DNA of 33,608 nt. Source: a virus. Taxonomy: Duplodnaviria > Caudoviricetes. This document shows positions 774 through 33,366 of this stretch, one piece after another. The position numbers and the translations under genes were made by a program. The notes under the pieces were generated by a model. The model worked only from the letters and a program-made list of their open reading frames with translations. It had not been told where the DNA came from and ran no database searches. How positions within the stretch are numbered: position 1 is the stretch's first letter; every line of letters starts with the position of its first letter. The stretch is from positions 1 to 33,608 of the IMG/VR virus record IMGVR_UViG_3300043443_000158. The stretch is one strand, 5' to 3'.

Positions 774-3700
774 TTATCTCCTAAGTACCTCTTGTTGAAA
801 GTCAGATAGTTGCTGTCTGTTTTCTTTTATTTTATCTTTCTTTGCTTCCAGATCTTCTATCTGAGAATTCAACGAAGCTTTGGTATCAGAGTCTTCTAGA
901 TAATCCATCTGTCTTCTCATAGACTTAATCTGTTTGTCTATAGAACTGATGTCTCTTTTACTTCCTTTTAACTCAGAATCCAAAGTCTCTATAAACCAAC
1001 GTGGGTTTCTTGACTCGTACTTACGATATATAAATTCTGGATTAGTTACATAGTTTGCAGAGACACTCAATCCAAACATTTTTTCTAATCTAGCAAATAA
1101 CTCATACTGACCTTTCAATGCTGGATCTGGCTTATATCTCTTAGGGTTAAGAATCTTACCTGTCCTACTTCTCTCGATATATTCATCAAACATGTTTATA
1201 TCATCCATAGGGTTTATAAAGTTACCAATAAGCTTCATAGCTTCAAAAGATCCCTGAAGAGGGAGGATTAGATTCTTCTCTAGGTAAAACTCTCCTATGC
1301 TCTTACCGTCTACATTGTTAAGAACACGAGAGTGGATAATAGATGCTGTTCCAAATATTGGATTAAGCGTATTCAACTCGTCCTCAATTAACAATAGATT
1401 ATAAAGTAAGAAGTAAGCACCCCAAACATTCTCATCATCGTCATCATCGGTATAAATCAAAGAGTTTAGAGCCATCATAATACCTGTACTTATAGTCAAC
1501 ACAAGCATGTCATAAACAGCAGACATTGCCTCTGACTTTTCCTGAGGAGTCATAAGATTATTTAAAGCAGCCAAAGAGAATCTATTCTGAAATAAAATCT
1601 TAATTGCTTGGGCTAAAGTTCTAAAATAACCTTGGTGTTCCATACCTGCTCCATAAGACATTCTACGTGTTCCAAATCTTCTTATGAATTGGTAAGTAAA
1701 CCATCCCTTCATGTAACCGATTAAGCGACCGAATGTATAACGAGAGTACTCTCCTTTGTCCATTGCAGAATAAGCTCCATGAATCAAAGAGTTAACTGCA
1801 TTTACTTTCTGTCTAAATGCTGTCTCAGTACCTACAAAAGTCTCGATGTTCTTAATGTTAGGATCTGGTTTCATTACACCGTCCTCTAGCACATAAGCAT
1901 CCATTATAGGCTTAAATGTACCATCATTCATCTCGATTAAGAACTGTTTAGACATAGCCTCAGCTACACCACTGCGCATTTCAAATTCACCAAAGGTTCT
2001 AATGAATGACAACATATAGAAAGGATTGTACCTTCTGCTTGCTTTCTCCAACTCACTTGCATATACTCTCTTACCTGATTCAGTCAAATGATCTTCAACC
2101 ATAATGTTAAAGTATCTCATCTTCTGAATGTAAGGAGAGTCTACACCATCTTCTACATAAGATCTAAATAAGTCTTGTAAGTGTTTAGCGTTTTTAGCCA
2201 TGGCAACAGTTACATCTTTCTTATCTATATCGTAAGTCTTGAGCTGTTCAAAGATGTTAATAGTGCCTGCACCAAAGTTCTTTAAGCTTGAAGGCAAACG
2301 GAGACTAAGAGCAAGTTCTGCACCAATTCCAAGAGACTTATCCACTCCCCACTCCAATGCCCTAACAGCTTTGTTACTACTCATTGTCTTTCTGCTCTTA
2401 CCTTGTAGTTTACGTTCAAATAGGTTAGTAACCATTTTCTGTACACGACTACCTGGCATCTTCTCATTCAATACGTCCTGGATACCATATAGGTAAGGAG
2501 CATTAGCATAAGCTTTCTTAAATCTAATTAAGTCTGTACCATACATAGCTAAGCTGTTAATGAAGTTTACACTCATCTTCTCAGCTGCTATGGGAGAGTT
2601 ATATCTTAAGAATAATCTACGATTGATTTTAGTCATCATAGAACCTTCGTCATCTCTTGCTCGATCTTCATCATTTTGGAAAGTAATATTATCCATCAAG
2701 TTACTCCAAGTACCTTTGATTTGTGCTCCAATTGTACCGAACTTCTTGTTACCCAAAGACTCAAAACCTTCTTTCATTACTGAAGGAAGCTCAATACCTT
2801 TCTTAAGATTTTTAGGAGTTCCTTTCTGCATCTCATTGTATGTAGCTAAGATGTCCTTAAGAAGTTCTTTCTCTTCTGAGTTTAATTTAGAGTACTCAGG
2901 ATTTTGATACTTACTCTTAGTAGGATTCAGTGCAACTCTCTTAGAACGTTTAGTCTGAGTCACAATGTCTTTTCTGTAAGCAGGGTTAATAGTAATAGTT
3001 TTCCAACGGAAAGAAGGCTCATTGTAGCTAATGTACTCTTTGTTTGTAGGTTCAGTAGTCATCCAGTAGAACAAAGGCTCATCTACTTCTACATAAGTCT
3101 GAGCAGCCTCATTGTAACGATAAATCTTTTTGTGATTCATCTTATACCAATCAGTAGTAAGCAAAGCCTCTCTAGCGTCCTCAGTCAATACTTTTCCAGT
3201 AGGATCTTGTGAGTACTTAGAAGGATTAGATGCAGAAAGTTTAGCACGAAGTTCTGCTACCTTAGATGTATAAGCTTCTTGATATGCTGGAGTATATACT
3301 TTCTCTTGCATATCTGATAACTCAGAAAACAAATCTCTAAGTCTTGCTCTATCTTTTCTATCAAGACCTTCTGATACTAATTCCTTGTATGCTTCTTTTG
3401 CATCTTCTAGTTCTTCTTCAAGTTCTGCAATACGAATAGGAATGTTAACTTCTTTTACTACTCCATTCTCTTCTACGGTAACTGTATCTGTAGGAATCTT
3501 AGTTCCATCATAGATGTTATCTGAGTTTTTAAATCCTTTAAGCAGGCTGAACATCTCATCCCAGATCTCAGTAACAGGTCTAATAGAAGTATCGCTAACC
3601 TTAGCTTGGATTGCTGCAATAGATTCTAGAATAGCCCTTCTCTCTGTATAGAATTCTGGACTAATCTTTCTTACAGCATTGTTAGCTCTCCAAACATTGT

Positions 3701-6578
3701 AGTCTTTTTGTACAGCGTCTAATACTGTCTTCTTAGCCTCTATTACTTCTTGAGTCTGTTGTGTAGCTACAGCATCATCATATTCTAACTGTGCTCTATC
3801 TAGAATAGACTGTTTCTTTCTTAGCTGAGCATTGAATAAGTTTTTATTGTTTTCAGTTAACTCATACTTATAAAGTTCTGCAGCATTCTTTTCTTTCTTC
3901 CACTCTCTGATACTAGCAGCAATTCTTAAACCTTTCTCGTCTTTAAGAACACCCATTATATCTGTATCAGACTCTAGACGATCTAATTGTAACTTAAGAT
4001 CTTCTAGTTTATCTAACTCCTCTTCGTTGTTCTCCTCGTCTAGTGATGATGCTTGGATCTTACGCATCTCTTCAATTATCTCTTCCCGAGCATTCTTAGC
4101 TTCTTCAGAAAGCAAATCTTGGATACGGTAGTATTCATCAATGAAAGGTCTTTCTTCAAACTCGTTCTGTAAGTTTACTAGCTCGTCTTCTTTCTTTTTA
4201 ATTTGATCTTTAATCTCGGGAGTTTGATTCTTTTGATTCTTAAGAGTCTGGATTGCATGAATCAAAGTTATCCTGTCATTCTGATAACCTATCTCATCCA
4301 TCTCTGTGTTAAACACTAAAGTCTCTCTAGAAGTAAGTTCTCCTTTTTTAATCTCCAGTATTTTTACCTTACGTATATATGGACCAAAAGTGTTTTGGAA
4401 ATCTAATCCTGTTAAGTTTCTTCCTCCCTTAAGTTTAGTAATTTTCTCTAAGCGATCTCCTAGCTGACGCATCTTTCTTTCTAGAGCAATAGACTCAGCA
4501 TTAGCCTCATCATATAGTTTAGTAAGAAAAGACCCTACAGTACCAGTAATAATATTACCTGTTAAGGCAGCAGACTCTGTATAAAGACTAAATAGATTGA
4601 TATCTTTTAACTTGCCAGAGAAAGCCTTAGCAAGATTTTCTTCTGTTGCTAAGTCATTTAGTTTCTTCTTCTCTTCTGCAATCTTATTCTTAAGATTCTG
4701 AGCCAAAGTATTATTACCTGCAGACACAGCTGCTTCGTAGTTCTTCTCAAACTGATCAATATTTGCTTGTACAGATTCTCTAATAGATTCAGTTTGTGGA
4801 GCAATTTCTTTGGCTAGTTTTTTAGAAATAGCCCTAGTAGCTTTGTTAAAATAGTCTTGAGTAAGAGAGTTAGCCAGAGCTTCTATGTTTCTGATTTGGG
4901 CATTAAGGACAGTACCTGTTCCTGTATCTCCCATAATCTCTGTGTACTCTCTCATAATCTGCTTAAAGTGTTCTCCTAACTCACGAGCATGATAGGCTTG
5001 CCTAAAGATCTCTTCGTCTGTGTGTACTCCACTTGCAGACATAGTATCCATAGACAACTGCAAAGAACGAAGATATTTTGCTGTATCATGGAAGTAAGTA
5101 ACCAAAGACCTAAAAGCTTCTTTAGCATCTCCTACAGAAACATTTTGTAATGCTTCTTCAGATTTGTAAAGTAGTGGTAAGTTAATCTTTACGTTATTTG
5201 CTTCCATAAAGATCTTACGCCAGTCAATAAAATCACCGTCTAGGAAAGTAGATAGACGAGTTTGAAACTCTGAGTTATTCTTTAAGTACTCATCTGCCTC
5301 AGCAATCTGCATAGGACTCATTTGATAATTAGCTCCGTCTTCTTCCTGAAAAGGTCTAGTTAGATTTAAGTCTTGTGCAAATACAACCTGTTCAAAGTAA
5401 TCATCTAAGATCTTCTCTACATCTTCTTGAGTAGGGGCAACCGAAGTCTTAACCTTATTCAAGCCGAGCTTCTCTAGTAAGAATGCCCATATCTTTTCAA
5501 ATATGTTTTGTGCATACTCAGGTTCTGCTTTTTCTAAAAGATCCCTAAACGCAGGGTTACTAAGAAACTCGCTAGCAAATTCATCTACACCAAGCAATCC
5601 GTAGTAAAGATCTATAAACTCTTTATTAGAGTACTTGTTTCTATAATAGTTGTATGCTTGTGTAAGACCCTCTAGTAGTTTACGATCTGTGTCATTCTGT
5701 GGGTCTTTTAAAGCACCTAGAGTAACTGAGTGAACAAGTTCATGAATAAACAAACGTCTGAAAGAATCTAAGTCAAGACTAGCTAGTGCAAAAGGACTTA
5801 ACAATATCTTTTGTTGGAATCTAGAATAACGTCCTATGCCTACTCCATCTTTAATGGGATCAAACTTCTCAGTATAAGTAGCTCCCTTAAAGAAACTTAA
5901 ACCTAAGTCTGGATTCAATTCTGCTACTCTAGCAAGTTTCTTTAAAATCTCTCTCTGGTATACAGGAGTATTGGGGTCATTAACAATCTTAGTTAATGTA
6001 TCAAACACGTCAGGTTTTGCAAGATCAAGATAAGGCTTAAGGTGTTCTAACTTGCTTGTTCCATCAGAAGCTTTTAGTTCAAGCATCTCCAACTCATAGG
6101 ATTGCACCATATCCATAGTCTTACCATTACTATAAGTAATAGGGGTAAGTCTATAAGTACGTTGCCCAATAGGTACACTGGGGTCTACAACTTCTATCTC
6201 AAAAGCAAATGAATTATAATCCTTAGTATCCTCAATAAACTGTTCTAACTGAGTTACGTTGTATTGTTCATCTAAAGTCATCCCATGATCATCGTAGAAT
6301 CTTTGAACTTCTTTTAAGTAAGAAAGTTGTCTAGGTCCTACTTGTATTCCAGACAAAGCCAAGAAGTTTTCTACATCAGGCTCAGGATTAGGGCTAATAC
6401 TCTTTCTAGATTTTAGTAATCCCCAAGACCTATCTTTAGCATTATTATAGACTGCATCTAGAGTATCCTTTACATATTGATCATCAAAGTCTAGTTGGGT
6501 TAACATATAACCCAACAACGAAGGATGTCTTTCAGTGGATATAGGATTGTTTACGTGTATAATACAAGTTTTGCTCAT
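774..6578 (-). CDS. Giant virion cargo/ejection protein (1934 aa) with N-terminal zincin-like domain and C-terminal hydrophobic hairpin
   Basis: HELVH at residues 279-283 (5730-5744), then DEFASEFLSNPAF and an IFEKIWAFLLEKLG helix. Long acidic coiled-coil regions. Hydrophobic segments flank DDDDD near the C-terminus. Lies directly after the RNAP gene, as in crAss-like phages. Confidence 0.8.
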   Translation of the reverse strand: MSKTCIIHVNNPISTERHPSLLGYMLTQLDFDDQYVKDTLDAVYNNAKDRSWGLLKSRKSISPNPEPDVENFLALSGIQVGPRQLSYLKEVQRFYDDHGMTLDEQYNVTQLEQFIEDTKDYNSFAFEIEVVDPSVPIGQRTYRLTPITYSNGKTMDMVQSYELEMLELKASDGTSKLEHLKPYLDLAKPDVFDTLTKIVNDPNTPVYQREILKKLARVAELNPDLGLSFFKGATYTEKFDPIKDGVGIGRYSRFQQKILLSPFALASLDLDSFRRLFIHELVHSVTLGALKDPQNDTDRKLLEGLTQAYNYYRNKYSNKEFIDLYYGLLGVDEFASEFLSNPAFRDLLEKAEPEYAQNIFEKIWAFLLEKLGLNKVKTSVAPTQEDVEKILDDYFEQVVFAQDLNLTRPFQEEDGANYQMSPMQIAEADEYLKNNSEFQTRLSTFLDGDFIDWRKIFMEANNVKINLPLLYKSEEALQNVSVGDAKEAFRSLVTYFHDTAKYLRSLQLSMDTMSASGVHTDEEIFRQAYHARELGEHFKQIMREYTEIMGDTGTGTVLNAQIRNIEALANSLTQDYFNKATRAISKKLAKEIAPQTESIRESVQANIDQFEKNYEAAVSAGNNTLAQNLKNKIAEEKKKLNDLATEENLAKAFSGKLKDINLFSLYTESAALTGNIITGTVGSFLTKLYDEANAESIALERKMRQLGDRLEKITKLKGGRNLTGLDFQNTFGPYIRKVKILEIKKGELTSRETLVFNTEMDEIGYQNDRITLIHAIQTLKNQKNQTPEIKDQIKKKEDELVNLQNEFEERPFIDEYYRIQDLLSEEAKNAREEIIEEMRKIQASSLDEENNEEELDKLEDLKLQLDRLESDTDIMGVLKDEKGLRIAASIREWKKEKNAAELYKYELTENNKNLFNAQLRKKQSILDRAQLEYDDAVATQQTQEVIEAKKTVLDAVQKDYNVWRANNAVRKISPEFYTERRAILESIAAIQAKVSDTSIRPVTEIWDEMFSLLKGFKNSDNIYDGTKIPTDTVTVEENGVVKEVNIPIRIAELEEELEDAKEAYKELVSEGLDRKDRARLRDLFSELSDMQEKVYTPAYQEAYTSKVAELRAKLSASNPSKYSQDPTGKVLTEDAREALLTTDWYKMNHKKIYRYNEAAQTYVEVDEPLFYWMTTEPTNKEYISYNEPSFRWKTITINPAYRKDIVTQTKRSKRVALNPTKSKYQNPEYSKLNSEEKELLKDILATYNEMQKGTPKNLKKGIELPSVMKEGFESLGNKKFGTIGAQIKGTWSNLMDNITFQNDEDRARDDEGSMMTKINRRLFLRYNSPIAAEKMSVNFINSLAMYGTDLIRFKKAYANAPYLYGIQDVLNEKMPGSRVQKMVTNLFERKLQGKSRKTMSSNKAVRALEWGVDKSLGIGAELALSLRLPSSLKNFGAGTINIFEQLKTYDIDKKDVTVAMAKNAKHLQDLFRSYVEDGVDSPYIQKMRYFNIMVEDHLTESGKRVYASELEKASRRYNPFYMLSFIRTFGEFEMRSGVAEAMSKQFLIEMNDGTFKPIMDAYVLEDGVMKPDPNIKNIETFVGTETAFRQKVNAVNSLIHGAYSAMDKGEYSRYTFGRLIGYMKGWFTYQFIRRFGTRRMSYGAGMEHQGYFRTLAQAIKILFQNRFSLAALNNLMTPQEKSEAMSAVYDMLVLTISTGIMMALNSLIYTDDDDDENVWGAYFLLYNLLLIEDELNTLNPIFGTASIIHSRVLNNVDGKSIGEFYLEKNLILPLQGSFEAMKLIGNFINPMDDINMFDEYIERSRTGKILNPKRYKPDPALKGQYELFARLEKMFGLSVSANYVTNPEFIYRKYESRNPRWFIETLDSELKGSKRDISSIDKQIKSMRRQMDYLEDSDTKASLNSQIEDLEAKKDKIKENRQQLSDFQQEVLRR

Positions 6579-6596
6579 TTCAAGTTTTTAGTATTT

Positions 6597-6625
6597 CAAA
6601 TATAAGTTAATTTCCAGTTTTGCAG
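6597..6625 (-). promoter_or_regulatory. Bacteroidota-type -7 promoter box upstream of the 1934-aa gene
   Basis: TATATTTG at 6604-6597 in the 28-nt intergenic gap. The -33 box is degenerate (CTG, 18 nt upstream). Confidence 0.55.
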
Positions 6626-9600
6626 CGAACAGTTTCTGAGTCTGTCTTAGAGGGAGTAGAAGTCTTAGGTGCTCTAGCAATAGTCATCTGAGTAGATTCT
6701 ATTACGGGAGCATTTAAACTGTCCTCTTGATAGAACTCGTCTGCATCGTAAACATCAGGATCTCCAGTAAACTCATCTTGTTCTCCAGGTAAAAGATCTG
6801 TAGTGTTAACAGGTTCTCGTTTAGCAACTTCTTCTTTGGTGTATAAAGGAAAGAATTTATCTACTTCATTTTTTGGCTTCCCTTCATTTAACTTTATAGA
6901 AATAGTAATATGATCTGTTAACAAGCTAGCTATTGGTGAGTTAAATTTATCTTCCGCTTCATTGTAGGAAGTCTTCATCGCTTTGAGAGTCTCAGATAAA
7001 CCTGCTGCTACATCAATATAAGATTGAATAGGTAGATAAGGTTGGATACTTCTATAACGAATGTTGAATCCTTGACTCACAATGGTTGCATTAGCCACAT
7101 CACTAAAGAACTGTACTACCTCTGGATTAGGGTGATTCAATCCATCCATAAAGGCTTTCTGAACTGCGTCTACTGTATCAGGATCTTTCTCATTAGTCTT
7201 CATAGTAATGTAGAAGCGATCACTGTTTTTAATATCGGTAGTAGTAAAGTTACTTAAGAACAAGTTATTACGACTGAAGTCTTTTAGCTCTTGGTTTTTG
7301 TTATCTCTAAATAAACGAATAAATTCACTCTTTAGATTATTCTTTGAACTCTTTTTAAAGAACCCTGCTTCTCTTCCATACTGTCTATAAAGTGCTCTAG
7401 TCTTATCTGTTCCATACTCTTGGATAAGAAGATGCATGAAACCATTAAATACAGTGTTAACTTCTTTAAGTTTCTTTTCTGTACCCCAGAAAGTCTTACT
7501 CTTTAACCACTCTTGTATGTTATCTTGTATTACAGGAAGACTGACTACATCAAACAACTGACCAGAGATAGTTAAAGCATCGTCAACAATATTAAATGGA
7601 GACACTACACTGTTGTTAAGGATCTTATCTACAGCATCATCGTTAAATTTATTTCTTGCTTCCTGTACTCCATACTGGTTACTGAAGAAATCTGTAATAC
7701 TTCTGTAGGAATTTGTGTTAAAGTCGACATTTGCAGTAAGTTTAAGCAAACTATCATTCTGTTCTTTAACAATCATATACTGGGTCAAGAAAGCTACCTG
7801 AGCTGCTAACTGAGATTGAGCTTCTCTGTCTCCCTTTTTTGCAGTCTCATTAATAGCATCAAATGCTTTACGATCATTCCTTACATATGGAGGATAATTC
7901 TTTTCACTAAAGTTTACTAGGTGTTTACTAAAGTAATCTGTGTTAAGAATCATAGTAATAGTCTGAGCCATATCAACCATAGTAGGCATAGATTCTTGCA
8001 TAATAGGTTTGATACCAAGAGTCTTTAATCCGTCTAGGATATAAGAGGTAGCCTTTTTACTCTTCTTACCTAGACTAGCTCCTACATCACCTACTTTAGA
8101 ACTTCTTAGGTAATGTTGAATGATAGGTTGGTTAACAAGAAGAATAGCATCCTCAATAGGAGTACCGTTAAGCACCATCTGTAGGATAATAGGAGTACGT
8201 ATTTTATCAGAGTTGAAGTAATTGATCCAGTCCTCTCTCTCAATATCTACGTGCCCGTTAATGAACTCATTGATTACATCAGAAATAAGATTATTATTAT
8301 CTGCATCAAGGTAACCTCCCAAAATTATTGATCCATTTACATCTTTGTTTGCCTTTAAGTAGTAGTTATTAGATAAGAAGCTATCAGTAAACTTTAATCC
8401 TGTTTGCTGGAATAACTTATGCAAAGCATTCACTTTAGCATCTACGCCCAACGACTTCTTACCTAATGTATTTTCATTAAAGATTTGTACAGAAGTCATA
8501 GGAGAGAACATAAAGCTTCCGCTTATATTACTTGCAGTTCCTCTCATCTTTAAGTACCTATTTGCAATAGCTGGAAGAATAGTGTTAGCATTAGGTTTAG
8601 TAAATCTAGAGTACAGTGCAGGCTCAGACAATACGTCAGAGATAACACCAATCATTCTATTAGAAGATATGTTCTTAATATTCTGAGGAGTATAAGCCTG
8701 TAAACTATTAAGATCTTCGTTAATTGACTTTAGGTTAGCAAGTGTAGTTACAAGAGTAGGATTCTGTTCTTTAAGTTGCTCAATACGTGCGATCAACATT
8801 TTTATACGTAGGTGAGCACCCTCTACCAAAGGATCATCGTAAGAAGCCTTTCTAGTAGATAAGTCATAAAGAACACCTTTTAAGTTTTTGATGTCTTGCT
8901 CGTACAAACCTTTTACAAAGTAAGCACCAGTGTTGTTAAGCAATTCTTTAATTTCTTTCTTTGCTTGGAGGTTAATAACACGTTCCCTGATGTTATTTAA
9001 CATGTCATTAGTAAAGTCAGAAGAATCTACTATTGCATCATCTATCAAGTTACCATTTTCATCCAGCTTTGGCTCATACATAAACAATTTATCTATGTCA
9101 AAGTCAGATCCAGACTTAGTTACAATTGAAGGAGGAACAATGATTACAGGACCTGCACTAGTAGGTAGGAATTGTCTTACTCTAAAGTATTCCATAGAGT
9201 TAAATCCTTGTACAGGAATACGTACACCTACGATAGTAATCTTGTCAGAATGTTCCGCTACCCAAGCATCGTCCATCAATGCTAAGTTTAATCTATCTAG
9301 AGTTCCAATACGTTGTCCTTCAAACTCTAAGTTAAGTAAGGCCTGATGCTTTTTAGGATTAAAAGAGATTTTAATATCTGCAGGTTGAGTCTTTCCGTTT
9401 TGTACACGGTAATCTCTTAAACCTGAAGTTCCATGTTTAGCTACTTGTTCTGCAGTAGGTTTAGTAAAGCGAGTCCCTAAGTTATTGAATCCAGAAGAAG
9501 CCAATTGAATGTACGCCTCACCAAACATCTTAGGTCTGAGTACACGCTTAGACAAAGCAGAAGTAATCACACTTTCTACTAGGTTACGTTGTGCAGAACC

Positions 9601-12600
9601 ATCTAAAGACCTAGCAAAACTATTCTCGTCTAAACTATCAATATAAAGGTATACAGAGTTAGGGATGTCTTTCTTATCGAACTCCTTAAACAACCAGTTC
9701 TTAAATGCTGGAACAGAGAATGAGATAATGTTTCCTTCGCTGTTAGTTTCTGCCTCAATCTGAGTGTAGATTTTAGCTTTCTCCGCATTTACAATATTCT
9801 GAACCATTGTAATGAATGTACTCTGAAGTGCATCCATTTTATCTTTGATTCCTGCAAACTGTGGATTGATTTCTCCATCTACATAGAAGTCTCCAAACAA
9901 CAATTTAACTAACTGGGTAGACAATGTTGCTTCTCCCTTAAACTTAGGAGCTATGTACTGTTGTCTACGGAGTCCTTTAATTGGGAAAGTCAAAACACTC
10001 TCAGAGGGTATCTTAGTGACACTCAAAGACTCCCCTTCTTTGTAGAAAGGCAAAGACTCTACAGGAATAGACATTTTGTTACCTGAATCAAATGTAGCAA
10101 AGTCTACACCCTTATCAAACATATCCAACATAAAGCCCTCTAAGTCTGTATCAAATACAACAGAAGGAAGTAAGTTAAATACAGAGTACTTTCCTAATGA
10201 TACGTATTTAGTATTCTCTAGAGGAGAACCATAGTAACCCAATTTCAAAGAGGTAAGAATACCTTTGTTTGCTTGACTGATAAGCTCCAGTACTTCCTGC
10301 TTAGTTCCTTTGTTGGCCCTGTATGCTTGAATTGCTTTAAATACTTTTACTTCATGGTTGTAAGCGTCCTCGAGTTCTGAAGGCCACTCTCCAATAGAGT
10401 TTAGATAGAAACGAATAAAGTCAAGGTTAGCATAAGCCTGAGCATCTGCTTCTTTCTTTTGACTAAACATCTCATCCAAGTTTAATTTAATCTCCTCGAT
10501 TGCTTCTTTTGTTACTTCTGCCTTTCTAGCTTTACTTGCGTTTTTAGGAAGAAGACTAAGCTTCCATTGTACAAAACCATCTTCAATTTCTTTTCTTAAA
10601 ACGGTTGACTGTTCAGGAGTGAACGAAGGTAGATCTTTAAACTGTACGTATTTAAAGTTTTCATCGTAATTCCTAGATGAACCTTTTCTTTCTTTCTCAA
10701 GTAAACGAGCGTACTTAGGATCTGTGTTCCAAGACAAGAAAGTCTGGTCATCTAAGTGTGGCTGCTTACCTGGAGATATAGATGCACCCAAACGCTTAAA
10801 CAATTCACGCCAGTTGTTGTCCTCTGGATTTACGTTAAAGTTAGATGGATCTCCTACTATAGTATGAACGTACTCTATTTGGTGAACATTATAGTTAGCC
10901 AAATAGTGAAGTATCATTGCATTGATGTTTTCATCTGTATACTTGATACTAGGATCATAGTTGAGCTTACTAAACTCAGCAGCAAAACTTGCTTGTTTAC
11001 CTTGAGAAATAATCTCTGCAAGACTACTACGGAAGGTTGTAAGTTGAGAACTGTAAAATCTTTCTACATTACCTACAAACACACCGTACTTAGTATCACG
11101 ACCAGGTGCAAACAAAGTACCTACAGCATCAAGAAGCGACTCTTTAGAATCTGCTACTCTTACTAATTCTTTTAGTTCTGTTTGAAGATCTTCAGGTAGG
11201 ATATCTTTAAATATGATAAAGTTGAATCCTCTTCTTTCTTTAGCAGTAGACTGTGCTCTATCATCAAACATTCTAGATAATTCAAAGTCTAAGTAGTCTC
11301 TCATTTGAGTTATTACACTACCTGCCAACATGGCCTTACCATCTTCCTTATTAGTAAACTCGTCTCTCTTAAAGTAAGTACGTTCAGAGATGTTACCTTT
11401 AATCCTAGTAGCAAATGAACTACTCTTAGCTCCTACCCTTATGTTTTCAAAGGTAGCGTCTTTCAAGAATCCTAAGAAATCTTGAATTAGTTTACTATCA
11501 GCTGAAAGGTTTGTAGTCTTCTTACCATCCATATTCCCTACCTGCATACCAGAGAAGTTAATTACTTCTAAACTAACAGGTTCTCCAGCTTGGTTCAATC
11601 TACGATTTCCTGACTCATCAAATATTTTCTTAAACCATGCACTGTACTTGGGAAAGTTATTAGATTCAATATTAAGATGCCCAGCTAACTCATTGATATT
11701 TCTTACGTTATTAATCTCTTCTACAGTACTAAGCATGTGGTTCCACTCACGAATAGACCACTCTAAGTTATTCTCGATACTTAAGTAAGAAGCAGAGTTA
11801 GATATATTATTAAATGACTCTACAGTATTATAGAAGTTTCTTCTTTCGTTTTTAAAAGTAGTAATACCCTTAAAGCGATCTACATAGAATTTCTTAATAG
11901 GATCGTTTGCAGAAAGTTTACTAAGTTCAGACTGTAATGCTCTAGATATATCACTTGTCCAAGTTGCAGTAGGACCTGAGGTAGCTCCAGGTACTACATC
12001 TTTTAACTCTTTGTTTGTAGAACGGTTAATCATGTCTACTAAAAGCATCTTGTTTATAGCAAGCTTTGACATGTAGTTAATGTTCTTCAGTGCATTTGGA
12101 GTAATCTTTGGATTTGCTTTGAAGTTAAATTCTCCCTTTCTATTAAATAGAGTTGCTTCAGGAACGTTATTATATAAATCTATCCCAAATACTTCCTTAA
12201 AGAAACGGAAAGTAACTTGATCTGTAAAAGGAAATAACTTCTCGTAGTCATCTAATACTGACTTAATATCAAAAGTAGGAAGACTAATATTGTTTATGTC
12301 TGTGTTACGATATCTTCTAGAAGAGTTCTCTACGAAGTCTTGGTCAAACAATTCAATCAAAGCTCCTTGAGACAAAGTATTCTCCATAAAAGTACTTGCC
12401 TTAAGAGAAATCTTAGGAGCATTTTTATCTGTACTTTTTTCTACAGTTGCTCTAATGTTCATAGGAACAACAGTAGGCATAGAAGCAAATTGCATAAACT
12501 GTGCTTTTAAAGCTTCCTCAGCTATCGAAAGAGCACCAGTAGTACTAGGCATCCGACTAACAAAATATTGTAGCTGTGGAGACAAATCAGAAGCTTCAGT

Positions 12601-14364
12601 TAAAACTTCAATAGCTCTGCTATAATTAGTTAGACCACTTACCTTATTTAAAATTAAGTTTTTATTTGTCAAGAAGTCTCCTACCAAAGGAAGACCTAGA
12701 ATGTCTCCTACTGCTTGAATAACTTCACCCTTCTCGTTTCTTTTTAGATCAGGAAGAGTTTTAATCAGTTCTAGGATTTCAGGAGAAGCTAGATCCATAG
12801 GATTAACAGACTCTTTACCTTTAGAGTCGTAATCATTTCTACTACGTTCTTCTTCGTTTACTTCGTCTAGTTGCTCATCTACGTCTTTAACATCTTCATT
12901 AGAGGATGTTTTAAGAACATTACCCTTAGAAAAACTTTTATGATAAGCGACTATCTCAGGCCACTTATCCTGTCCGTTTTTATTATAAACTAAAGGAACC
13001 AGAGAGTTGATACGTTCTTCTATGATTTCGGCAGAAGCAGGATCTGCTGTCTCTAACTGTCTATTGTAGTTTTCAATAGCAGACTCAATAGCAGTTTTTA
13101 CTTGATCATATATTTGAGGGATAATTTTTTCTTTCTGTTCATTACTGTTAAAGAAAGAAGCATTAATACCCATCCTATCCAATGCTGTATTAAAGTAGTA
13201 GTCTATAGCACTAAGTATCTCAGCACCTTCTAGAGAACTGTACTCAAAAGGAATCTTGTTTCCTTTGTTATCAATTACCTCTAAGTTTAAGGCTTTACTT
13301 CTGTTAAGTTTAGTGTGTTCTATATTTTCTTCAGAGTAAGTAAAGTCTGTCAGGTTTCCTCTATAGAGCTTCTCAAACAATTCATCAATAGGAGCCTTCT
13401 CCTCAACGATCTCACCCTCAGGAGTAACAGTAGTTGTTTTTGTAAATAGATTGCGTAAGAAGTCCATTACACGTTGGAAGAACGTTCTTACAGGTTCTTC
13501 TAGTTCAGGTTCTTCTACTTCTAAACTTTTAGCTAATCCATAAGATCTAAACTCTTCTGCAAGGACTTCTTCTATTTGACGGTTAGTCAAAGAATAATAA
13601 GGAAGTTCTACTCCTCCCATAGTAATAGTACCAGGACGAGATTGAATCATATTATACAAAGCAGCTCTCTCTGCCTTACTCAAGAACTTCTGAGTAAACT
13701 CGTGGAATGATTCGTGATACAAGTCGGTAAAGTCTGATCCACGATACAAAGTAATTGCAGACTTAGTCCACTGTGCAAAAGCTTTTTGGTTTACTATGTT
13801 ACTCATGTTAACATAGGTAGTGTACTGTGCTAAAGGAGACCTAGCAAACCACAAGTAAGCGTCTAGAAGCTGACGACCTGTAGGTTTGTCAATTGTACTA
13901 TCAACTTCATTATCAATCTGTTGTAACAGTTCTCTACTTACTTGTTGAAGTTCTTCTGGTCTAAATGTTTCTGCTTTGAATCCTTGATTAACCTGAGATA
14001 TAATCTTACTTGCTAAAGCGTTCAAGTCTCCTCCGTTATTAGAGATATAGGCATGAACAACTTTACTTTGTATAAAAGAATTAAAGGTGTCAAACTTAGG
14101 ATACTGTTTCTTAAACTTTTTACTAAAAGTAACTGCTACAGCAAAAGTTGCTTTAGCCTCATTTCCTTGATACTCGTTTAAGAAAGTGTTATAGATAGGG
14201 TTATCTACAACTGACTCTTTTTTATTCTTAGTAATTACCTTTTTACTAAGGGGATGACCTTGGTTTCTATTCCAAAGAAAATATGCAAAGTCTTCTCCAA
14301 CAATTTCTTTTAGAGAATTAAACTCTCCACGAATAGACGGTATACTAAGGTTTGGACAAATCAT
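6607..14364 (-). CDS. Virion-packaged single-chain two-barrel DNA-dependent RNA polymerase (crAss-like, phi14:2 gp66 type) with N-terminal zincin-like domain
   Basis: Catalytic GSDFDIDKLF (DFDID = residues 1754-1758, 9091-9105) preceded by VRIPVQGFNSM. Also ADAQAY, DSGNK and EFINGHVD segments typical of this family. HESFH at residues 217-221 (13702-13716) with downstream EEVLAEEF. Confidence 0.92.
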   Translation of the reverse strand: MICPNLSIPSIRGEFNSLKEIVGEDFAYFLWNRNQGHPLSKKVITKNKKESVVDNPIYNTFLNEYQGNEAKATFAVAVTFSKKFKKQYPKFDTFNSFIQSKVVHAYISNNGGDLNALASKIISQVNQGFKAETFRPEELQQVSRELLQQIDNEVDSTIDKPTGRQLLDAYLWFARSPLAQYTTYVNMSNIVNQKAFAQWTKSAITLYRGSDFTDLYHESFHEFTQKFLSKAERAALYNMIQSRPGTITMGGVELPYYSLTNRQIEEVLAEEFRSYGLAKSLEVEEPELEEPVRTFFQRVMDFLRNLFTKTTTVTPEGEIVEEKAPIDELFEKLYRGNLTDFTYSEENIEHTKLNRSKALNLEVIDNKGNKIPFEYSSLEGAEILSAIDYYFNTALDRMGINASFFNSNEQKEKIIPQIYDQVKTAIESAIENYNRQLETADPASAEIIEERINSLVPLVYNKNGQDKWPEIVAYHKSFSKGNVLKTSSNEDVKDVDEQLDEVNEEERSRNDYDSKGKESVNPMDLASPEILELIKTLPDLKRNEKGEVIQAVGDILGLPLVGDFLTNKNLILNKVSGLTNYSRAIEVLTEASDLSPQLQYFVSRMPSTTGALSIAEEALKAQFMQFASMPTVVPMNIRATVEKSTDKNAPKISLKASTFMENTLSQGALIELFDQDFVENSSRRYRNTDINNISLPTFDIKSVLDDYEKLFPFTDQVTFRFFKEVFGIDLYNNVPEATLFNRKGEFNFKANPKITPNALKNINYMSKLAINKMLLVDMINRSTNKELKDVVPGATSGPTATWTSDISRALQSELSKLSANDPIKKFYVDRFKGITTFKNERRNFYNTVESFNNISNSASYLSIENNLEWSIREWNHMLSTVEEINNVRNINELAGHLNIESNNFPKYSAWFKKIFDESGNRRLNQAGEPVSLEVINFSGMQVGNMDGKKTTNLSADSKLIQDFLGFLKDATFENIRVGAKSSSFATRIKGNISERTYFKRDEFTNKEDGKAMLAGSVITQMRDYLDFELSRMFDDRAQSTAKERRGFNFIIFKDILPEDLQTELKELVRVADSKESLLDAVGTLFAPGRDTKYGVFVGNVERFYSSQLTTFRSSLAEIISQGKQASFAAEFSKLNYDPSIKYTDENINAMILHYLANYNVHQIEYVHTIVGDPSNFNVNPEDNNWRELFKRLGASISPGKQPHLDDQTFLSWNTDPKYARLLEKERKGSSRNYDENFKYVQFKDLPSFTPEQSTVLRKEIEDGFVQWKLSLLPKNASKARKAEVTKEAIEEIKLNLDEMFSQKKEADAQAYANLDFIRFYLNSIGEWPSELEDAYNHEVKVFKAIQAYRANKGTKQEVLELISQANKGILTSLKLGYYGSPLENTKYVSLGKYSVFNLLPSVVFDTDLEGFMLDMFDKGVDFATFDSGNKMSIPVESLPFYKEGESLSVTKIPSESVLTFPIKGLRRQQYIAPKFKGEATLSTQLVKLLFGDFYVDGEINPQFAGIKDKMDALQSTFITMVQNIVNAEKAKIYTQIEAETNSEGNIISFSVPAFKNWLFKEFDKKDIPNSVYLYIDSLDENSFARSLDGSAQRNLVESVITSALSKRVLRPKMFGEAYIQLASSGFNNLGTRFTKPTAEQVAKHGTSGLRDYRVQNGKTQPADIKISFNPKKHQALLNLEFEGQRIGTLDRLNLALMDDAWVAEHSDKITIVGVRIPVQGFNSMEYFRVRQFLPTSAGPVIIVPPSIVTKSGSDFDIDKLFMYEPKLDENGNLIDDAIVDSSDFTNDMLNNIRERVINLQAKKEIKELLNNTGAYFVKGLYEQDIKNLKGVLYDLSTRKASYDDPLVEGAHLRIKMLIARIEQLKEQNPTLVTTLANLKSINEDLNSLQAYTPQNIKNISSNRMIGVISDVLSEPALYSRFTKPNANTILPAIANRYLKMRGTASNISGSFMFSPMTSVQIFNENTLGKKSLGVDAKVNALHKLFQQTGLKFTDSFLSNNYYLKANKDVNGSIILGGYLDADNNNLISDVINEFINGHVDIEREDWINYFNSDKIRTPIILQMVLNGTPIEDAILLVNQPIIQHYLRSSKVGDVGASLGKKSKKATSYILDGLKTLGIKPIMQESMPTMVDMAQTITMILNTDYFSKHLVNFSEKNYPPYVRNDRKAFDAINETAKKGDREAQSQLAAQVAFLTQYMIVKEQNDSLLKLTANVDFNTNSYRSITDFFSNQYGVQEARNKFNDDAVDKILNNSVVSPFNIVDDALTISGQLFDVVSLPVIQDNIQEWLKSKTFWGTEKKLKEVNTVFNGFMHLLIQEYGTDKTRALYRQYGREAGFFKKSSKNNLKSEFIRLFRDNKNQELKDFSRNNLFLSNFTTTDIKNSDRFYITMKTNEKDPDTVDAVQKAFMDGLNHPNPEVVQFFSDVANATIVSQGFNIRYRSIQPYLPIQSYIDVAAGLSETLKAMKTSYNEAEDKFNSPIASLLTDHITISIKLNEGKPKNEVDKFFPLYTKEEVAKREPVNTTDLLPGEQDEFTGDPDVYDADEFYQEDSLNAPVIESTQMTIARAPKTSTPSKTDSETVRCKTGN

Positions 14365-14395
14365 TCTTTTTATTTTAAATTAAATGTGTGTTATA

Positions 14396-14425
14396 CAAAT
14401 ATAAGTCATTTACAGAATTTAGAAA
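14396..14425 (-). promoter_or_regulatory. Bacteroidota-type promoter upstream of the virion RNAP gene
   Basis: TATATTTG at 14403-14396 followed by TATAAC, the same 14-mer as at 24399-24386. The -33 position reads TTTC. Confidence 0.65.
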
Positions 14426-14455
14426 CCTAAGTATCAAAGCTTAGGTTTCTTTTTT
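14421..14455. terminator. Hairpin at the end of the 1966-aa gene (terminator-like; T-run on the + strand)
   Basis: Perfect 11-bp inverted repeat AGAAACCTAAG (14421-14431) / CTTAGGTTTCT (14440-14450). The 8-nt loop contains the TGA stop. Confidence 0.5.
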
Positions 14456-17400
14456 ATCTGATCTTTAACTTGTTTAGCTGGATTGATACAATCCTCTTTT
14501 GCTTTCTGTGCTTCTTGAACTTCATCTTCATCAAAGAGTTCTCCTGTACTCTGACTATTAAGTCTGTCTGCTAATGACTGTTTAGGTGCAACAGGTTGCT
14601 TAAGTGCAGGATTCAAGTATTCTTCTTTAGACATTGACTCAAAGTTCTCAGGACTGTTTCCTCGGAATACTCTTAAGGGATTATACCTAAACTTAGTTCC
14701 TCCAATTCCTTCTTCCTTACGCATTAAGATTACAGGAACTTTCTTTCCCCCTTCCAACTGAACAGTAGCTAAGATAAAGTCTCCCTCTACTTCTGAGTTA
14801 TATGGAACTATTCCAGGAATAAGATTGGTTGTTTTACCTACGGTTTCTAGTTTTCTTGTTACAATCTGATAGTCTACAGAAGCAGGATTATCAGACATAG
14901 TTTGTACTGCCTGCTCATAAATCTCTTTAGTCAAGAAATTTACGAATGCATTATAGATTCCATAAGCCTGTGCAGTAGGACTTCCCTTTGCGTAGTTGAC
15001 AGCATCCATGTAAGTAATTGCTATAAACTCGTCTATAGTTTTTCCTGGTGTAGGTTGTACTTGTGGTGCTCGGGGAGCTACAACAGGTTTAGGAGTAATA
15101 GGTTCAGGAGTAGGTTGAACTTTTGGTAATAGATCTGACGCCCTCTCTACAAAGTTTTTTGGATCAGGATAAACTACTTTATTTACAGGAGACAATAATT
15201 CTCCAGAAGAAGTTACAGGGAATGTATGTGTATCTTTTATATACTCAACGTAAGACTGTTTAGTGATCTTAGGTTTACCATCTACTAAAGATACTCTCAT
15301 CATTGTCTCACCTCCTTGAAGCATCTTTTTATCCAACTTGTAGAAGCTTTCTTTTAAGAACTTTACAAAGTCTTCTTTTGTCAACTTAGTATTTACAGGC
15401 TTACCATCTTTGTAAACAGTTCTTATTATATTGAATGGATACTGTACTGCTTCTGTTTTACTTGGGAAGTTTTTATTAGGGAAGAAGTGAATACGATTCT
15501 TTTTGTCTACTTGGTTAATCAGACTTACTAAGTAGTTCTCCAATCCTTCGACAGTTCTGAACTCTGCAGGAAGAGTTTCAGAGAATAACATTTCAGCAAT
15601 AGCTTCTGCTTCGTTCTCGTCTATATTAGTGTTACTTAAAATAACAGGAGTACCATTGTTATTAAAATAGACTCTACCTAACTTAAAGTTAAATCTCTTA
15701 CCAAAGATTGATTGACCTACTTCAGTTGCAAGATCAAAGTCTTGAATACCTGCACTATTAATAGTCTCGTCGTTTAATTCATTTGCTTTTTTCTGTTCTG
15801 CACTTTTGAATACCACTCCTTCGGACACTGTGTAGTCTGTATCAATAAAAGCGTCTGTATTCTGAGACAAGTATGCTTTCAGTCTTGCTAGTGTGTTTGA
15901 GTTATTAGCATGCTCTTGTTTAAGTGCCTCAGTACCTACTCCAGCTTCTTTATATTCTTCCTCAATTCTTTCTGATACTCTGCCTTCTGCAGGAAAGTTA
16001 AGCTGTAGAGGATAGCCTTCAAATAGATTTAAGTTACCATCTGCATCGGATGAAGTAATAGATACTGTAGATTCCTTTGTGAATCCCTTACCATTATTAG
16101 CAACAAAGTATGCTAACGCAGCACGATCAAAGTACTCTTTGCCTAAGAGACTATGCATAGGCTCAAGGATAGCATCCTGTTCTTCTACGCTTTTAGCATT
16201 CCATTGTTCAGCAGTAAGAATAGTATTATCAAACATTGCTTCGATAGTAGCAAAGTCATCTACCAATTGTTCTTCTGTTTTATCAGGAAACTTCATAACT
16301 AAGAACATCATTGCTGTTCCTTTGCGACTTTGTATTCTTACTTGATAAGGTTGGTCTGCAATCTCTTCTATTGCTCTTGCATTTCTTATGTCTGCAGGAT
16401 CTGTTCTTCTTTGGTCTGATCTACTAAACTCTACCCCTACACTTCTTATAGGACTAGCCAAGAATCTAAGTCTAGCTAGTCTTATTTCTAACTGGGAATC
16501 AAGAGTCTTGTTCTTAGCAATTACCTGTGGGAACTCCGTAGAAGCATCAGGGTTTGTTAGATTAGTTTGGGTAGGAGTAATAGGAACATTAGGAGGTACA
16601 AGAGAGGGAGTAGCTGCTGTAGTAGTTGCAGTTGCTATAGGTCCTTCAACCAACTCTTCTCTTACAAACCTAGTAGCCATGTACTTAAGTAAATCCAATG
16701 AGCTTACTTTGTCTTGTACTGCATCAAATTTTGTATTGTTCTTCTTACGAAGTTCTATATCTTTCTTTAATGCTTCAATTAAAGTATTAATCTCTTGAAC
16801 AAACTGTGGTTCAGTAATTTGTTTTTGAGTGAACTGTCTCAACAAATTGCTAACTTGAGCATTCTCTTTAGAGTTCTGGCCAAACTTAACTTTTGTAGTA
16901 TTAATCAAAAATTCTAAAAACCTTTGATTAGCCTCTGTCGGATACTTTTGTTTAAAATTACCGAGTATCTCTTTATAACGCTTACTGTACTTATCTGTTA
17001 CAGGAGATTTGCCTGACTCATCTACAGGTTGTGCAGCATCTTCCTCAGTAGGCAAAGACTCATTAAATTCTTCTACATCTTTTGTCTCTTCATCAGTTAA
17101 GTCTGTGTCAGGAGTAGGTTGATCAGACATCTGCATAGATCTTACCTGAGCTCTTCTTTGTATGAATGCTTCTCTTGCTGCATCAAGTTCTTCCTTAGTG
17201 TATTCTATACCAGGAAAAAGTTTATTGACACTGTCAACATTGTAAGCATAACTAGCATTAATTGGTGCTACGTTATCTAGGAATATACCCAAAGCAGATA
17301 AGCGTTGTTCTGGAGTAGCAGCAAGTAAACTTTCTAAAACTTTAATTTGACTCTTCTGCAAATTTTCATCTGCTGTCTTAGCCATATCCTCGTTAATAAA

Positions 17401-24614: not shown

Positions 24615-25187
24615 TTAACACTTCCAACGCCTACGTGCTTGTCTGATTCTGCTATTAGGATCATTCTGTGTAGCCTGTGAAGATCTACGCAACTGACCTA
24701 ATGAACGAGCACAGTAGGACTTTCTACGATTAGCTGCTTTGCTACCTGGCTTTACCTTACCTGTAACAGCAGTACTTAATTTGGAACCTGGGTTAGCTCT
24801 ACGATAAGCCATAACTCCCTTTTTAGTCATACCAGCACCTTCCTTAGTAGGACGATAGTTAGCTCCTGGGCCTTTAATTGTCTTAGCAATAGTTCCACCC
24901 TTAGCCATGTAAGCTGCTTTAAGTCTTCCGCCAGCCATAAACTTGTATCCGTACTTAGAAGCATCTTGTCTAGCCTCAGATACATTTCCTTTGTTAGCTG
25001 CTACAAATCTAGCCTTAGCAACACTGGTAGGCATTTTGCCGCCTTCAGCCATGTTACGTTTAATCTTACGTTCTTGCTTAAGCATCTCTGGAGTAGGTTT
25101 CTTTCCAGAACCTCTCTTGGCACGGATGTTATCCCACAATCCTCTTTGTGAGTAAGATCCGTCTTTACGTTTTATCATCTGTTTCAT
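24615..25187 (-). CDS. Basic modular protein (190 aa) with C-terminal DUF6321-like domain
   Basis: C-terminal GMTKKGV.AYRRANPGSKL...RRKSYCARS.G...DPNSR...ARRRWKC matches my recall of DUF6321-type phage domains. N-terminal GLWDNIRAKRG module. Three xxGG motifs. ATGA overlap with the upstream gene. Confidence 0.7.
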   Translation of the reverse strand: MKQMIKRKDGSYSQRGLWDNIRAKRGSGKKPTPEMLKQERKIKRNMAEGGKMPTSVAKARFVAANKGNVSEARQDASKYGYKFMAGGRLKAAYMAKGGTIAKTIKGPGANYRPTKEGAGMTKKGVMAYRRANPGSKLSTAVTGKVKPGSKAANRRKSYCARSLGQLRRSSQATQNDPNSRIRQARRRWKC

Positions 25188-32523: not shown

Positions 32524-33366
32524 TTAGGAGATATAGAACTTATTAAAGCGAGTTCTGGTTCTAGCTACGTTATCTGCCATTTGTTGCTTACTATAAGTCA
32601 ACAAGAAGCCGTTAGCAGCTTGTAGTTTATTTAGTTGATCTTGTCTGTAGTACTGAAACTTGGCTTCTACTTGTCGTTGACTCTCGTCAACTACTGAATG
32701 CCAAAGTTGCTCAAAAAATTTAAACTTAAGATAAGACTTGATATACTCTTCAACCTCAAGAATTTCTGGCACCATAGGTAAGTTATCATCGTCCATTGGA
32801 CGTGAGTAATATCTAAGGTACACACAACCTGTTTCAAACGTAGCAGTAATGCTTTTATTTGGGAAAATTTGTAAAACATCAGGAGAGGAAACACTTAAGT
32901 TCTCACATCCTTCTGTACAAAGGGCTTTAGAGCCATGGTACACACGAAGCATCTTAGGGTGCTTCATAGTAAGTTTAAATCCAGGAGTAGGTACACTGAT
33001 AGTCTCGTAGTAGTTTTCTTGCTTAGCGCAATCTCCTGCATCACAACCTCCTGTGCATTCGAGGTTTTGCCACCAGTACCCCTTCATGGAATTAACTCCT
33101 GCATACCACTCTACATCTGCATCATACAACAAGGCATGATCAAGTAAAGCAAAGTCACAAGGTAGTTCAGATTTATATCCAGAGAATGTAAGTACAGCTT
33201 CTTCAGGCTTAAGCACCATAACTCTAAGTTTACGGAGTGCCTGGTCTATAAAGGTGGGGATCAAAACCTCACTGATAGCACCAGCTTCAAAGTACGACTT
33301 AAGCTCCTGCTTAACTTCAGCAATTAGAGGTTCAGAAGAGATAAAGTTAGTGTTATCGTATTTCAT
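32524..33366 (-). CDS. Tail tubular / ring protein (crAss-like, P22 gp4-like)
   Basis: FIDQALRKL, YKSELPCDF and TFETGCVYLRYYSRPMDDDNLPMVPE...EEYIKSYLKFK pattern, plus synteny between the IHF-like gene and the tail stabiliser. Confidence 0.78.
   Translation of the reverse strand: MKYDNTNFISSEPLIAEVKQELKSYFEAGAISEVLIPTFIDQALRKLRVMVLKPEEAVLTFSGYKSELPCDFALLDHALLYDADVEWYAGVNSMKGYWWQNLECTGGCDAGDCAKQENYYETISVPTPGFKLTMKHPKMLRVYHGSKALCTEGCENLSVSSPDVLQIFPNKSITATFETGCVYLRYYSRPMDDDNLPMVPEILEVEEYIKSYLKFKFFEQLWHSVVDESQRQVEAKFQYYRQDQLNKLQAANGFLLTYSKQQMADNVARTRTRFNKFYIS

What the first reader, a model, noticed from the sequence alone, without database searches (positions are those of the whole stretch)
6564..14490. 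Only four cysteines in 6485 residues, all at facing termini: a possible head-to-tail linked ejection chain
Seen by reading the translations: the 1966-aa protein has one Cys (C1949, 14488-14490, KEDCINP). The RNAP has two (C3, 14356-14358, MICPN; C2581, 6622-6624, VRCKTGN). The 1934-aa protein has one (C5, 6564-6566, MSKTCII). The two outer termini have none, the 554- and 767-aa proteins have none, and the tail proteins are Cys-rich. This is the pattern needed for A(C-term)-(N-term)RNAP(C-term)-(N-term)C links in gene order. The C-terminal Cys residues follow acidic or P/T-rich, probably flexible tails. Inference: disulfide (or metal) bridges formed in the released virion join the three proteins into one thread. 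It could be ejected in order through the tail and released in the reducing cytoplasm, a redox-gated delivery system for the virion RNAP. I am not aware of a description of this.
Basis: partly seen in the sequence, partly recalled or inferred. Interest (0 to 1): 0.85.

Follow-up and report, generated by a model that had tools for sequence, protein, structure and literature searches.

The report
Terminal cysteines couple crAss polymerase pieces
Three giant proteins of this crAss-like phage, with its RNA polymerase in the middle, have cysteine only at the ends that face the next protein, a rule that relatives keep wherever the genes are separate and drop wherever they are fused, so these cysteines likely clip the pieces into one chain by disulfide bonds, which is untested.

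Summary
Observation exact: 4 Cys in 6485 residues, all at facing ends. This is the Crassvirales virion-RNA-polymerase module, and the pattern spans the order. In 187 dereplicated relatives, with split or fused state called by profiles rather than by cysteine, 360 of 366 junction ends carry a terminal Cys, against 1 of 224 outer ends. All 8 triple fusions have no Cys in the sequence seen. Extra genes inserted in the module carry Cys at both ends, and tails co-vary with their facing head modules. Best reading: docking tail plus head, locked by a disulfide, replaces the peptide bond of a split polyprotein. Cyanophage A4 has the same signature and a cryo-EM-observed gp27-gp26 disulfide (PMC12002296), though no homology was detected. 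Cysteine depletion and gene fusions are known; my seven literature searches found no account of the terminal rule. This scan found the pattern before on other DNA (279 notes, at least 245 genomes, held all search words).

The parts
14434..20334 (-). Protein A, 1966 aa, first piece of the RNAP module (positional equivalent of crAss001 gp47 / phi14:2 gp67); single Cys near the C-terminus
   Evidence: homology to gp47/gp67 not detected by their N-terminal profiles, so the assignment rests on position
14485..14529 (-). A tail: predicted helix, residues 1936-1950, ending at C1949 (codon 14488-14490)
   Evidence: AlphaFold2 on alignment A9; coordinates
14050..14364 (-). B head module, residues 1-105, with C3 (14356-14358); CPN-type family, found only at protein N-termini
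   Evidence: alignments; model pLDDT 94.9; 66 of 66 profile hits N-terminal; fold matches crassvirus proteins in BFVD
6607..14364 (-). Protein B, 2585 aa, virion RNA polymerase
   Evidence: DFDID at residue 1753 and RxP...GxDFDxD alignment with phi14:2 gp66 and crAss001 gp50; tblastn to 136 phage records
9094..9108 (-). Catalytic DFDID motif of the polymerase
   Evidence: the motif's role was shown for gp66 (bioRxiv 10.1101/2020.03.07.982082)
6622..6624 (-). B C-terminal Cys2581, fifth residue from the end
   Evidence: a Cys at -1 to -5 in 12 of 13 close relatives, the other having a broken frame whose next ORF ends in Cys -4
774..6578 (-). Protein C, 1934 aa, homologue of crAss001 gp49 / phi14:2 gp65; single Cys5 (6564-6566)
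   Evidence: iterated profile seeded on its C-terminal 750 aa reaches gp49, gp65 and the C-termini of fused polyproteins
22025..24328 (-). 767-aa Cys-free protein, likely cargo protein 1 (gp45 position); not part of the Cys chain
   Evidence: position and size only; PHROG 15413 E 2e-7
20355..22019 (-). 554-aa Cys-free protein, likely cargo protein 2 (gp46 position); not part of the Cys chain
   Evidence: position and size only
27428..32518 (-). Crassvirus muzzle protein, 24 Cys (context and composition control)
   Evidence: PF25731 E 7e-39
32524..33366 (-). Crassvirus tail ring protein, 7 Cys (context)
   Evidence: PF24228 E 2e-9

Best explanation
The three proteins are the separately encoded pieces of the crassvirus polymerase module, which other relatives encode as one fused protein, and each split likely carries a coupler: a short C-terminal tail predicted to dock on the next protein's small N-terminal head and to be locked by one Cys-Cys disulfide that stands in for the missing peptide bond. 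Shown: the Cys positions, their strict tie to split versus fused state, N-terminal-only head modules, and tail-head covariation. Inferred: tails and heads pair non-covalently during assembly in the reducing cytoplasm, which would set an A-B-C order and 1:1:1 ratio; the disulfides form after lysis; the 737-kDa chain is then drawn, partly unfolded, through portal, tail and channel as one thread, each piece pulling the next; host thiols can later open the links. All other cysteines are purged so that the unfolded chain does not cross-link wrongly.
For: 360 of 366 junction ends carry a Cys versus 1 of 224 outer ends in 187 loci. All 8 A+B+C fusions have zero Cys in the sequence seen (6 complete, 2 cut at the 5' end); A+B/C and A/B+C forms keep one pair. 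About 10 fused/split changes per junction on a FastTree of 162 RNAP cores, with Cys state mismatching in 2 of 162 and 1 of 88. Extra genes between B and C have Cys at both ends and none inside in 3 of the 13 wide-gap junctions and in L031; none of the 9 other inserted ORFs of 120 aa or more has that pattern. The junction with the nearest head has a more similar tail than core-matched controls, 98 of 146, p 4e-10. A4 gp27 (single Cys -3) and gp26 (single Cys5) are disulfide-bonded in the virion with a C-terminal helix in a cleft (PMC12002296); A's tail is predicted helical. crAss001 virions hold inter-subunit disulfides elsewhere, and their cargo must partly unfold to exit (PMC10172136).
Against: No bond was observed in any crassvirus: these proteins are unresolved in the crAss001 map. 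Nothing here tests order or timing of ejection. Tail-head covariation across junction types is weak (53 of 99, p 0.03), and the pairs are not independent. The two heads within one genome are not from different families more often than chance (4 of 50 share a family versus 5.7 shuffled, p 0.27), so specificity is unproven. 34 of 187 loci carry 5 to 27 internal Cys, so purging is not strict. Gut phages live where oxidation may be slow (my knowledge). A4 proteins are not detectably homologous, so that precedent is an analogy.
Confidence: 0.55

Rival explanations
1. The same tail-head disulfides form, but they only staple the packed core inside the capsid (or keep the polymerase tethered to its partners after entry); they do not make a thread that orders ejection.
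For: In A4 the bond is described as further stabilising a helix-in-cleft contact in a pentameric ring. N4 vRNAP is proposed to stay membrane-anchored through a linker after ejection (PMC13434306 passage).
Against: A staple need not follow strict N-to-C polarity, nor vanish with its head module exactly on fusion. Small enzyme-like passengers acquire both ends.
Confidence: 0.22
2. The paired Cys bind a shared metal (Zn or Fe), with other ligands from neighbouring residues or from a second copy of the chain, which would work without oxygen.
For: Works in the cytoplasm and the anoxic gut (my knowledge). Terminal Cys persist in loci rich in internal Cys: 20 of 20 tails and 19 of 20 heads.
Against: 124 of 208 junctions have no His in head or tail, and only 7 have a second Cys nearby. 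Only Cys is invariant in the head and tail alignments. The A4 pair was modelled as a disulfide. A four-Cys site built from two chains is not excluded.
Confidence: 0.1
3. The Cys stay reduced in the virion and are oxidised by host periplasmic enzymes during passage, joining the pieces only in the infected cell envelope.
For: Periplasmic oxidation is the usual reason given for Cys loss in ejected proteins (PMC11445570).
Against: The A4 bond is inside the mature capsid, and crAss001 virions already hold disulfides.
Confidence: 0.06
4. The Cys drive peptide ligation (trans-splicing or thioester chemistry) that makes a true polypeptide.
For: The fused genes show that a single polypeptide is a working state.
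Against: The head Cys is at position 2 in 1 of 209 cases and at 3-7 in the rest, with a variable preceding residue, so no free N-terminal Cys or cleavage consensus. The tail Cys is followed by 0-31 variable residues. No intein family matched in Pfam. crAss001 gp47, gp49 and gp50 are reported as separate proteins (gel sizes not seen).
Confidence: 0.04
5. Chance: cysteines are purged from the folded cores and merely tolerated at loose ends.
For: Cys purging of ejected proteins is known, and the rare Cys in N4-like gp72 homologues lay in poorly conserved or truncated regions.
Against: Outer ends carry Cys in 1 of 224 cases versus 360 of 366 facing ends (Fisher p 2e-89 for C-termini and 1e-63 for N-termini, not corrected for relatedness).
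Confidence: 0.01

Closest known systems
Cyanopodophage A4 (Anabaena phage A-4L) pre-ejectosome, gp27 Cys1715-gp26 Cys5 disulfide (PMC12002296)
   Same: Adjacent ejection-protein genes; a single Cys at -3 of the upstream and at position 5 of the downstream protein; C-terminal helix; pattern kept in Pf-WMP3.
   Different: No detectable homology; one link rather than two or more; no polymerase is named among these proteins in the passages read, which report a single structural contact, not a rule tied to fusion; the bond is observed there and only inferred here.
Crassvirales RNAP-associated cargo proteins (phi14:2 gp67/gp66/gp65; crAss001 gp47/gp50/gp49)
   Same: The window's module is a member; both cultured phages show the same terminal Cys. 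Fusion into one polyprotein is already noted.
   Different: The papers read treat them as separate subunits and expect the polyprotein to be cleaved; 'cys' and 'disulf' occur 0 times in the gp66 preprint; the crAss001 paper's disulfides concern gp57 and tail proteins.
Schitoviridae (N4, DEV) ejection operon with Cys-free vRNAP (PMC11445570, PMC13434306)
   Same: Ejected giant polymerase with strong Cys suppression; one long multi-domain chain resembling the fused crassvirus form.
   Different: T7-like polymerase; no terminal Cys (0.00075% Cys in gp71 homologues); no coupler.
Docking domains of modular PKS/NRPS assembly lines (recalled, not from a call)
   Same: Works like it: short C-terminal and N-terminal modules that re-join a split multi-domain protein in a fixed order and can be exchanged as pairs.
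   Different: Non-covalent, cytoplasmic, no Cys lock; no fold match was found for the head.

Membership tests
Crassvirales virion RNAP module | Giant protein with DFDxD double-psi-barrel catalytic motif | tested here: met
   DFDID at 1753, aligned with gp66 and gp50
Crassvirales virion RNAP module | Downstream partner homologous to gp65/gp49 | tested here: met
   iterated profile, E 1e-151 (gp65) and 3e-171 (gp49); values inflated by iteration
Crassvirales virion RNAP module | Upstream partner homologous to gp67/gp47 | tested here: inconclusive
   right position and size, but gp47, gp67 and LMMB profiles do not hit window A
Crassvirales virion RNAP module | Crass muzzle and ring tail genes nearby | tested here: met
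   PF25731 and PF24228 above cut-off
Crassvirales virion RNAP module | Capsid, portal and terminase phylogeny; presence in virions | not testable with these tools
   the record is a 33.6-kb fragment, 28% complete; uncultured as far as seen
A4-type disulfide-linked ejection pair | Single Cys at the facing termini of consecutive ejection proteins | tested here: met
A4-type disulfide-linked ejection pair | C-terminal helix leading to the Cys | tested here: met
   predicted for A's tail only; B's tail not modelled
A4-type disulfide-linked ejection pair | Homology to gp27/gp26 | tested here: not met
   phmmer and 11 profiles found nothing
A4-type disulfide-linked ejection pair | Disulfide observed in the virion | not testable with these tools
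   needs virion biochemistry or a structure
Schitoviridae Cys-free ejection operon | Cys suppression in ejected proteins | tested here: met
   0.053% internal Cys versus 0.86% in other ORFs
Schitoviridae Cys-free ejection operon | T7-like single-subunit vRNAP with no Cys at all | tested here: not met
   DFDxD-type polymerase with terminal Cys
Split intein / protein trans-splicing | HINT domain and fixed nucleophile positions at the splice ends | tested here: not met
   no such Pfam family in the three proteins; Cys positions vary, 2-7 and -1 to -32
PKS/NRPS docking domains | Known docking-domain fold | tested here: inconclusive
   no PDB match at E 0.001; best VIA Z 4.3

The most novel reading that the evidence does not exclude
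Crassviruses use an exchangeable tail-stop-start-head coupler cassette as a general grammar: any protein given a head and a tail is clipped into a covalent, ordered train of 0.5 to 0.8 MDa or more, pulled through the tail ahead of the DNA and uncoupled by the host's reducing cytoplasm. Phages would add effectors, such as the ADP-ribosyltransferase-domain passenger in L031, to this train at will.
Probability: 0.4. Interest if true: 0.85.

Novelty: new variant of a known kind. Interest (0 to 1): 0.72.

Why it matters
How crassviruses, the most abundant human gut phages, move several megadaltons of cargo through a narrow tail, and in what order, is left open in the crAss001 structure paper. The rule gives a concrete mechanism and names four residues in each of two cultured phages, so a non-reducing gel and disulfide MS can decide it. 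It would recast the 'three RNAP subunits' as one split chain, fix their order as gp47-gp50-gp49 whatever the gene layout, supply a sequence signature for spotting ejected passengers, and generalise the single A4 bond into a recurring solution in unrelated podophages.

Tried and rejected
Complex prediction of the A tail with the B head was not available, so there is no verdict on binding geometry or S-S distance. Pfam, PHROG and PDB sequence searches gave nothing above cut-off for the three giants. DNA search of phage records with part of B found nothing. Fold searches of the head: no PDB match; best VIA Z 4.3, with gp66 residues 2-94 at Z 3.8, too weak to use. The first tally was discarded: four loci had been wrongly read with TAG as sense, which fused separate genes, and a fifth with TGA as sense; one search replaces it. 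Seeds mis-picked were replaced. A marker profile for cargo protein 2 was too weak to use. The test that the two junctions of one genome use different head families was not significant. The IQ-TREE run did not finish; FastTree was used, so change counts are rough. No thioredoxin was found in the 28%-complete record, which says nothing about the whole phage. The published version of the gp66 paper (PMC12127119) was not held. Dropped rows: of 345 sequences, L019 (a partial duplicate) and 6 loci with no motif match (L025, L027, L098, L249, L274, L302) were left out before clustering; L025 and L027 show the pattern by eye and L098 too. Junctions without a marker hit were not counted.
Full report
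Observation. The window is a 33.6-kb virus fragment, 28% complete. Three consecutive minus-strand genes encode A (1966 aa), B (2585 aa) and C (1934 aa), 737 kDa together. They hold four Cys: A C1949, B C3 and C2581, C C5, at exactly the coordinates given. The two upstream 767- and 554-aa proteins have none, the muzzle has 24. Cys is 0.06% of the three giants against 1.42% of the muzzle, far beyond the differences for Trp or His.

Identity. Muzzle (PF25731) and ring (PF24228) hits place the region with crassviruses. B carries DFDID at 1753 and aligns with phi14:2 gp66 and crAss001 gp50. A profile seeded on C reaches gp65 and gp49. A is assigned by position only; profiles of gp47 and gp67 do not hit it.

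Close relatives. In 13 IMG/VR loci at 42-97% identity, every A end seen has one Cys 9-22 residues from the C-terminus, B starts with C3 and ends with a Cys at -1 to -5 (one broken frame aside), and C has C5, although the tail sequences differ completely.

Named crassviruses. phi14:2 has four Cys in 5398 residues: gp67 -1, gp66 3 and -2, gp65 3. crAss001 has gp47 -3, gp50 5 and -9 plus one internal, gp49 5, with gp47 on the opposite strand. CrAssphage LMMB and cr271_1 fuse B and C and keep only the A|B pair; Fpv1 and five Suoliviridae records (cr4_1, cr10_1, cr56_1, cr53_1, cr118_1) fuse A and B and keep only the B|C pair.

Order-wide count. Four scans on the polymerase motif returned the best 80 loci each from scans that stopped at 600 rows, so this is a sample. 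Of 345 sequences, 338 had the motif and fell into 187 clusters at 70% core identity. Split or fused state was called from iterated profiles of A's N-terminal and C's C-terminal regions; 71 loci lacked an A call and 20 a C call and were not counted at that junction. Results: A C-termini 55 of 56 (Cys in the last 25; 51 in the last 10), B N-termini 54 of 56 (51 within 8 residues of the first Met, the rest from a nearby Met), B C-termini 125 of 127, C N-termini 126 of 127; outer N-termini 0 of 78, outer C-termini 1 of 146. All 8 triple fusions (4799-5645 aa, two cut at the 5' end) have no Cys. Exceptions: L108 has its Cys at -32; L018, L141 and L152 have broken or interrupted B frames; L324 has two Cys-free ORFs whose frames overlap, probably a triple fusion broken by one base. 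On a FastTree of 162 cores each junction changes state about 10 times, and Cys state follows with 2 of 162 and 1 of 88 mismatches. Nine A calls rest on a profile seeded on the window's own A, which is position-defined.

Internal Cys. 503 in 954,424 residues (0.053%); 101 of 187 loci have none, 34 have five or more. Seven of the 34 are named faecal records. In the 20 junctions scored from those loci the terminal Cys persist (20 tails, 19 heads), against chance rates of 6% and 2%.

Anatomy of the coupler. Among 212 junctions, head Cys sit at position 3 (104), 4 (62), 5 (32), 6-7 (10) and 2 (1); tail Cys mostly at -1 to -4. Heads fall into families, the largest two (54 and 47 members) used at either junction. 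The window's B head belongs to the first; its profile hits only N-termini (66 of 66) and never the inside of a fused protein, and the second family's 3 internal hits of 78 are partial. The B head folds confidently as a small helical domain with a hairpin (pLDDT 94.9), matching crassvirus proteins in BFVD and nothing solved. A's tail is predicted to be a helix ending at the Cys. Lys/Arg make up 30% of residues around the tail Cys against 13% background, which would favour a reactive thiol (inference). Junctions with similar heads have similar tails beyond core-matched controls (98 of 146, p 4e-10; 53 of 99, p 0.03 across junction types; pairs not independent).

Insertions. Of 13 junctions with gaps over 150 bp, three hold extra genes with a Cys at both ends and none inside (L039 323 aa, L044 289 aa, L142 1167 aa); the nine other inserted ORFs of 120 aa or more do not. 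L031, close to L012, has a 328-aa ART-PolyVal protein between B and C, with C3 and a tail nearly identical to the tail of L012's longer B, while its own B ends in a different Cys tail. The simplest reading is that a tail-plus-head pair was inserted as a unit.

Mechanism. The cysteines appear exactly where a peptide bond is missing, so they most likely replace it. Peptide ligation is unlikely because no free N-terminal Cys or fixed spacing exists. A metal site lacks conserved extra ligands (124 of 208 junctions have no His), though a four-Cys site from two chains is not excluded. A disulfide has a precedent: A4 gp27 and gp26 show the same signature, Pf-WMP3 keeps it, and cryo-EM shows the Cys1715-Cys5 bond (PMC12002296). 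crAss001 virions contain inter-subunit disulfides in gp57 and the tail. I put a tail-head disulfide of some timing at about 0.8, and its role as an ejection thread rather than a staple at about two in three of that. Redox gating has no direct support.

Literature. Seen: PMC12002296 (passages), PMC11445570 (passages), PMC13434306 (passages), PMC10172136 (passages and the section on ejection), bioRxiv 10.1101/2020.03.07.982082 (parts 1-2 of 6 and passages). No supplements were read; the crAss001 extended tables on disulfides and MS may bear on the claim. Searches listed no paper describing terminal Cys coupling in crassviruses; I saw only the top 10-20 listings of each, and the library lacks most subscription papers. 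The A4 lead came from earlier notes of this scan, which report the same pattern on other genomes; I verified the paper and the A4 sequences myself, and my counts were made before that look-up.

Verdict. A real, order-wide and strictly patterned feature, best read as disulfide-locked couplers that re-join a split polymerase polyprotein. It is a new variant of a known kind: one such bond is known in A4, but the rule, its tie to fusion and the modular heads were not found in print. It is directly testable in two cultured phages.

Noticed in passing
L031:13417-14403: 328-aa ART-PolyVal (PF18760, E 1e-10) protein with Cys at both ends, inserted between B and C: a likely ejected passenger enzyme.
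   Followed up: partly
L324:12601-12631: Cys-free A+B and C ORFs whose open frames overlap by a one-base shift; either an assembly error in a triple fusion or a programmed frameshift that replaces the coupler.
   Followed up: partly
L311:11978-11982, L331:12901-12905, L293:8374-8381: A+B ends with its Cys tail and a TAG stop in frame with the start of C, one or two codons on; a possible route for fusion or fission.
   Followed up: partly
L118, L121, L132, L136, L140, L283 (120-167 aa ORFs at junctions): Small genes, ferritin-like by eye, recur between the chain genes; the window has a DUF5856 / PHROG 858 gene at 27043-27423. A link to redox or iron handling was not tested.
   Followed up: no
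window 26200-27027 (-): 275-aa basic protein with an N-terminal CxxC (C11, C14) and weak peptidoglycan-binding and endolysin profile hits.
   Followed up: no
window 24615-25187 (-): 190-aa very basic DUF6321 protein ending in Cys; the neighbouring 338-aa protein (25184-26200) has no Cys.
   Followed up: no
window, protein B residue 217 and protein C residue 279: HExxH zincin-like motifs in both the polymerase and protein C.
   Followed up: no
L015:2682-5267: In CrAssphage LMMB the 861-aa first cargo protein ends in Cys at -2 while the next protein has no Cys: a terminal Cys with no evident partner.
   Followed up: no
L345:13322-16498 and L346:2594-5617: A4 gp28 and Pf-WMP3 gp27 have only two Cys, a CxxC about 20 residues from the C-terminus.
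   Followed up: no
34 loci with five or more internal Cys: Internal Cys purging is relaxed in named faecal crassviruses and their relatives while the terminal Cys stay; may reflect host periplasm or habitat redox.
   Followed up: partly
L264, L026, L213: Part of the second head family's profile matches internal stretches of other proteins that look like the start of ART-PolyVal-type inserts (recalled motif).
   Followed up: no
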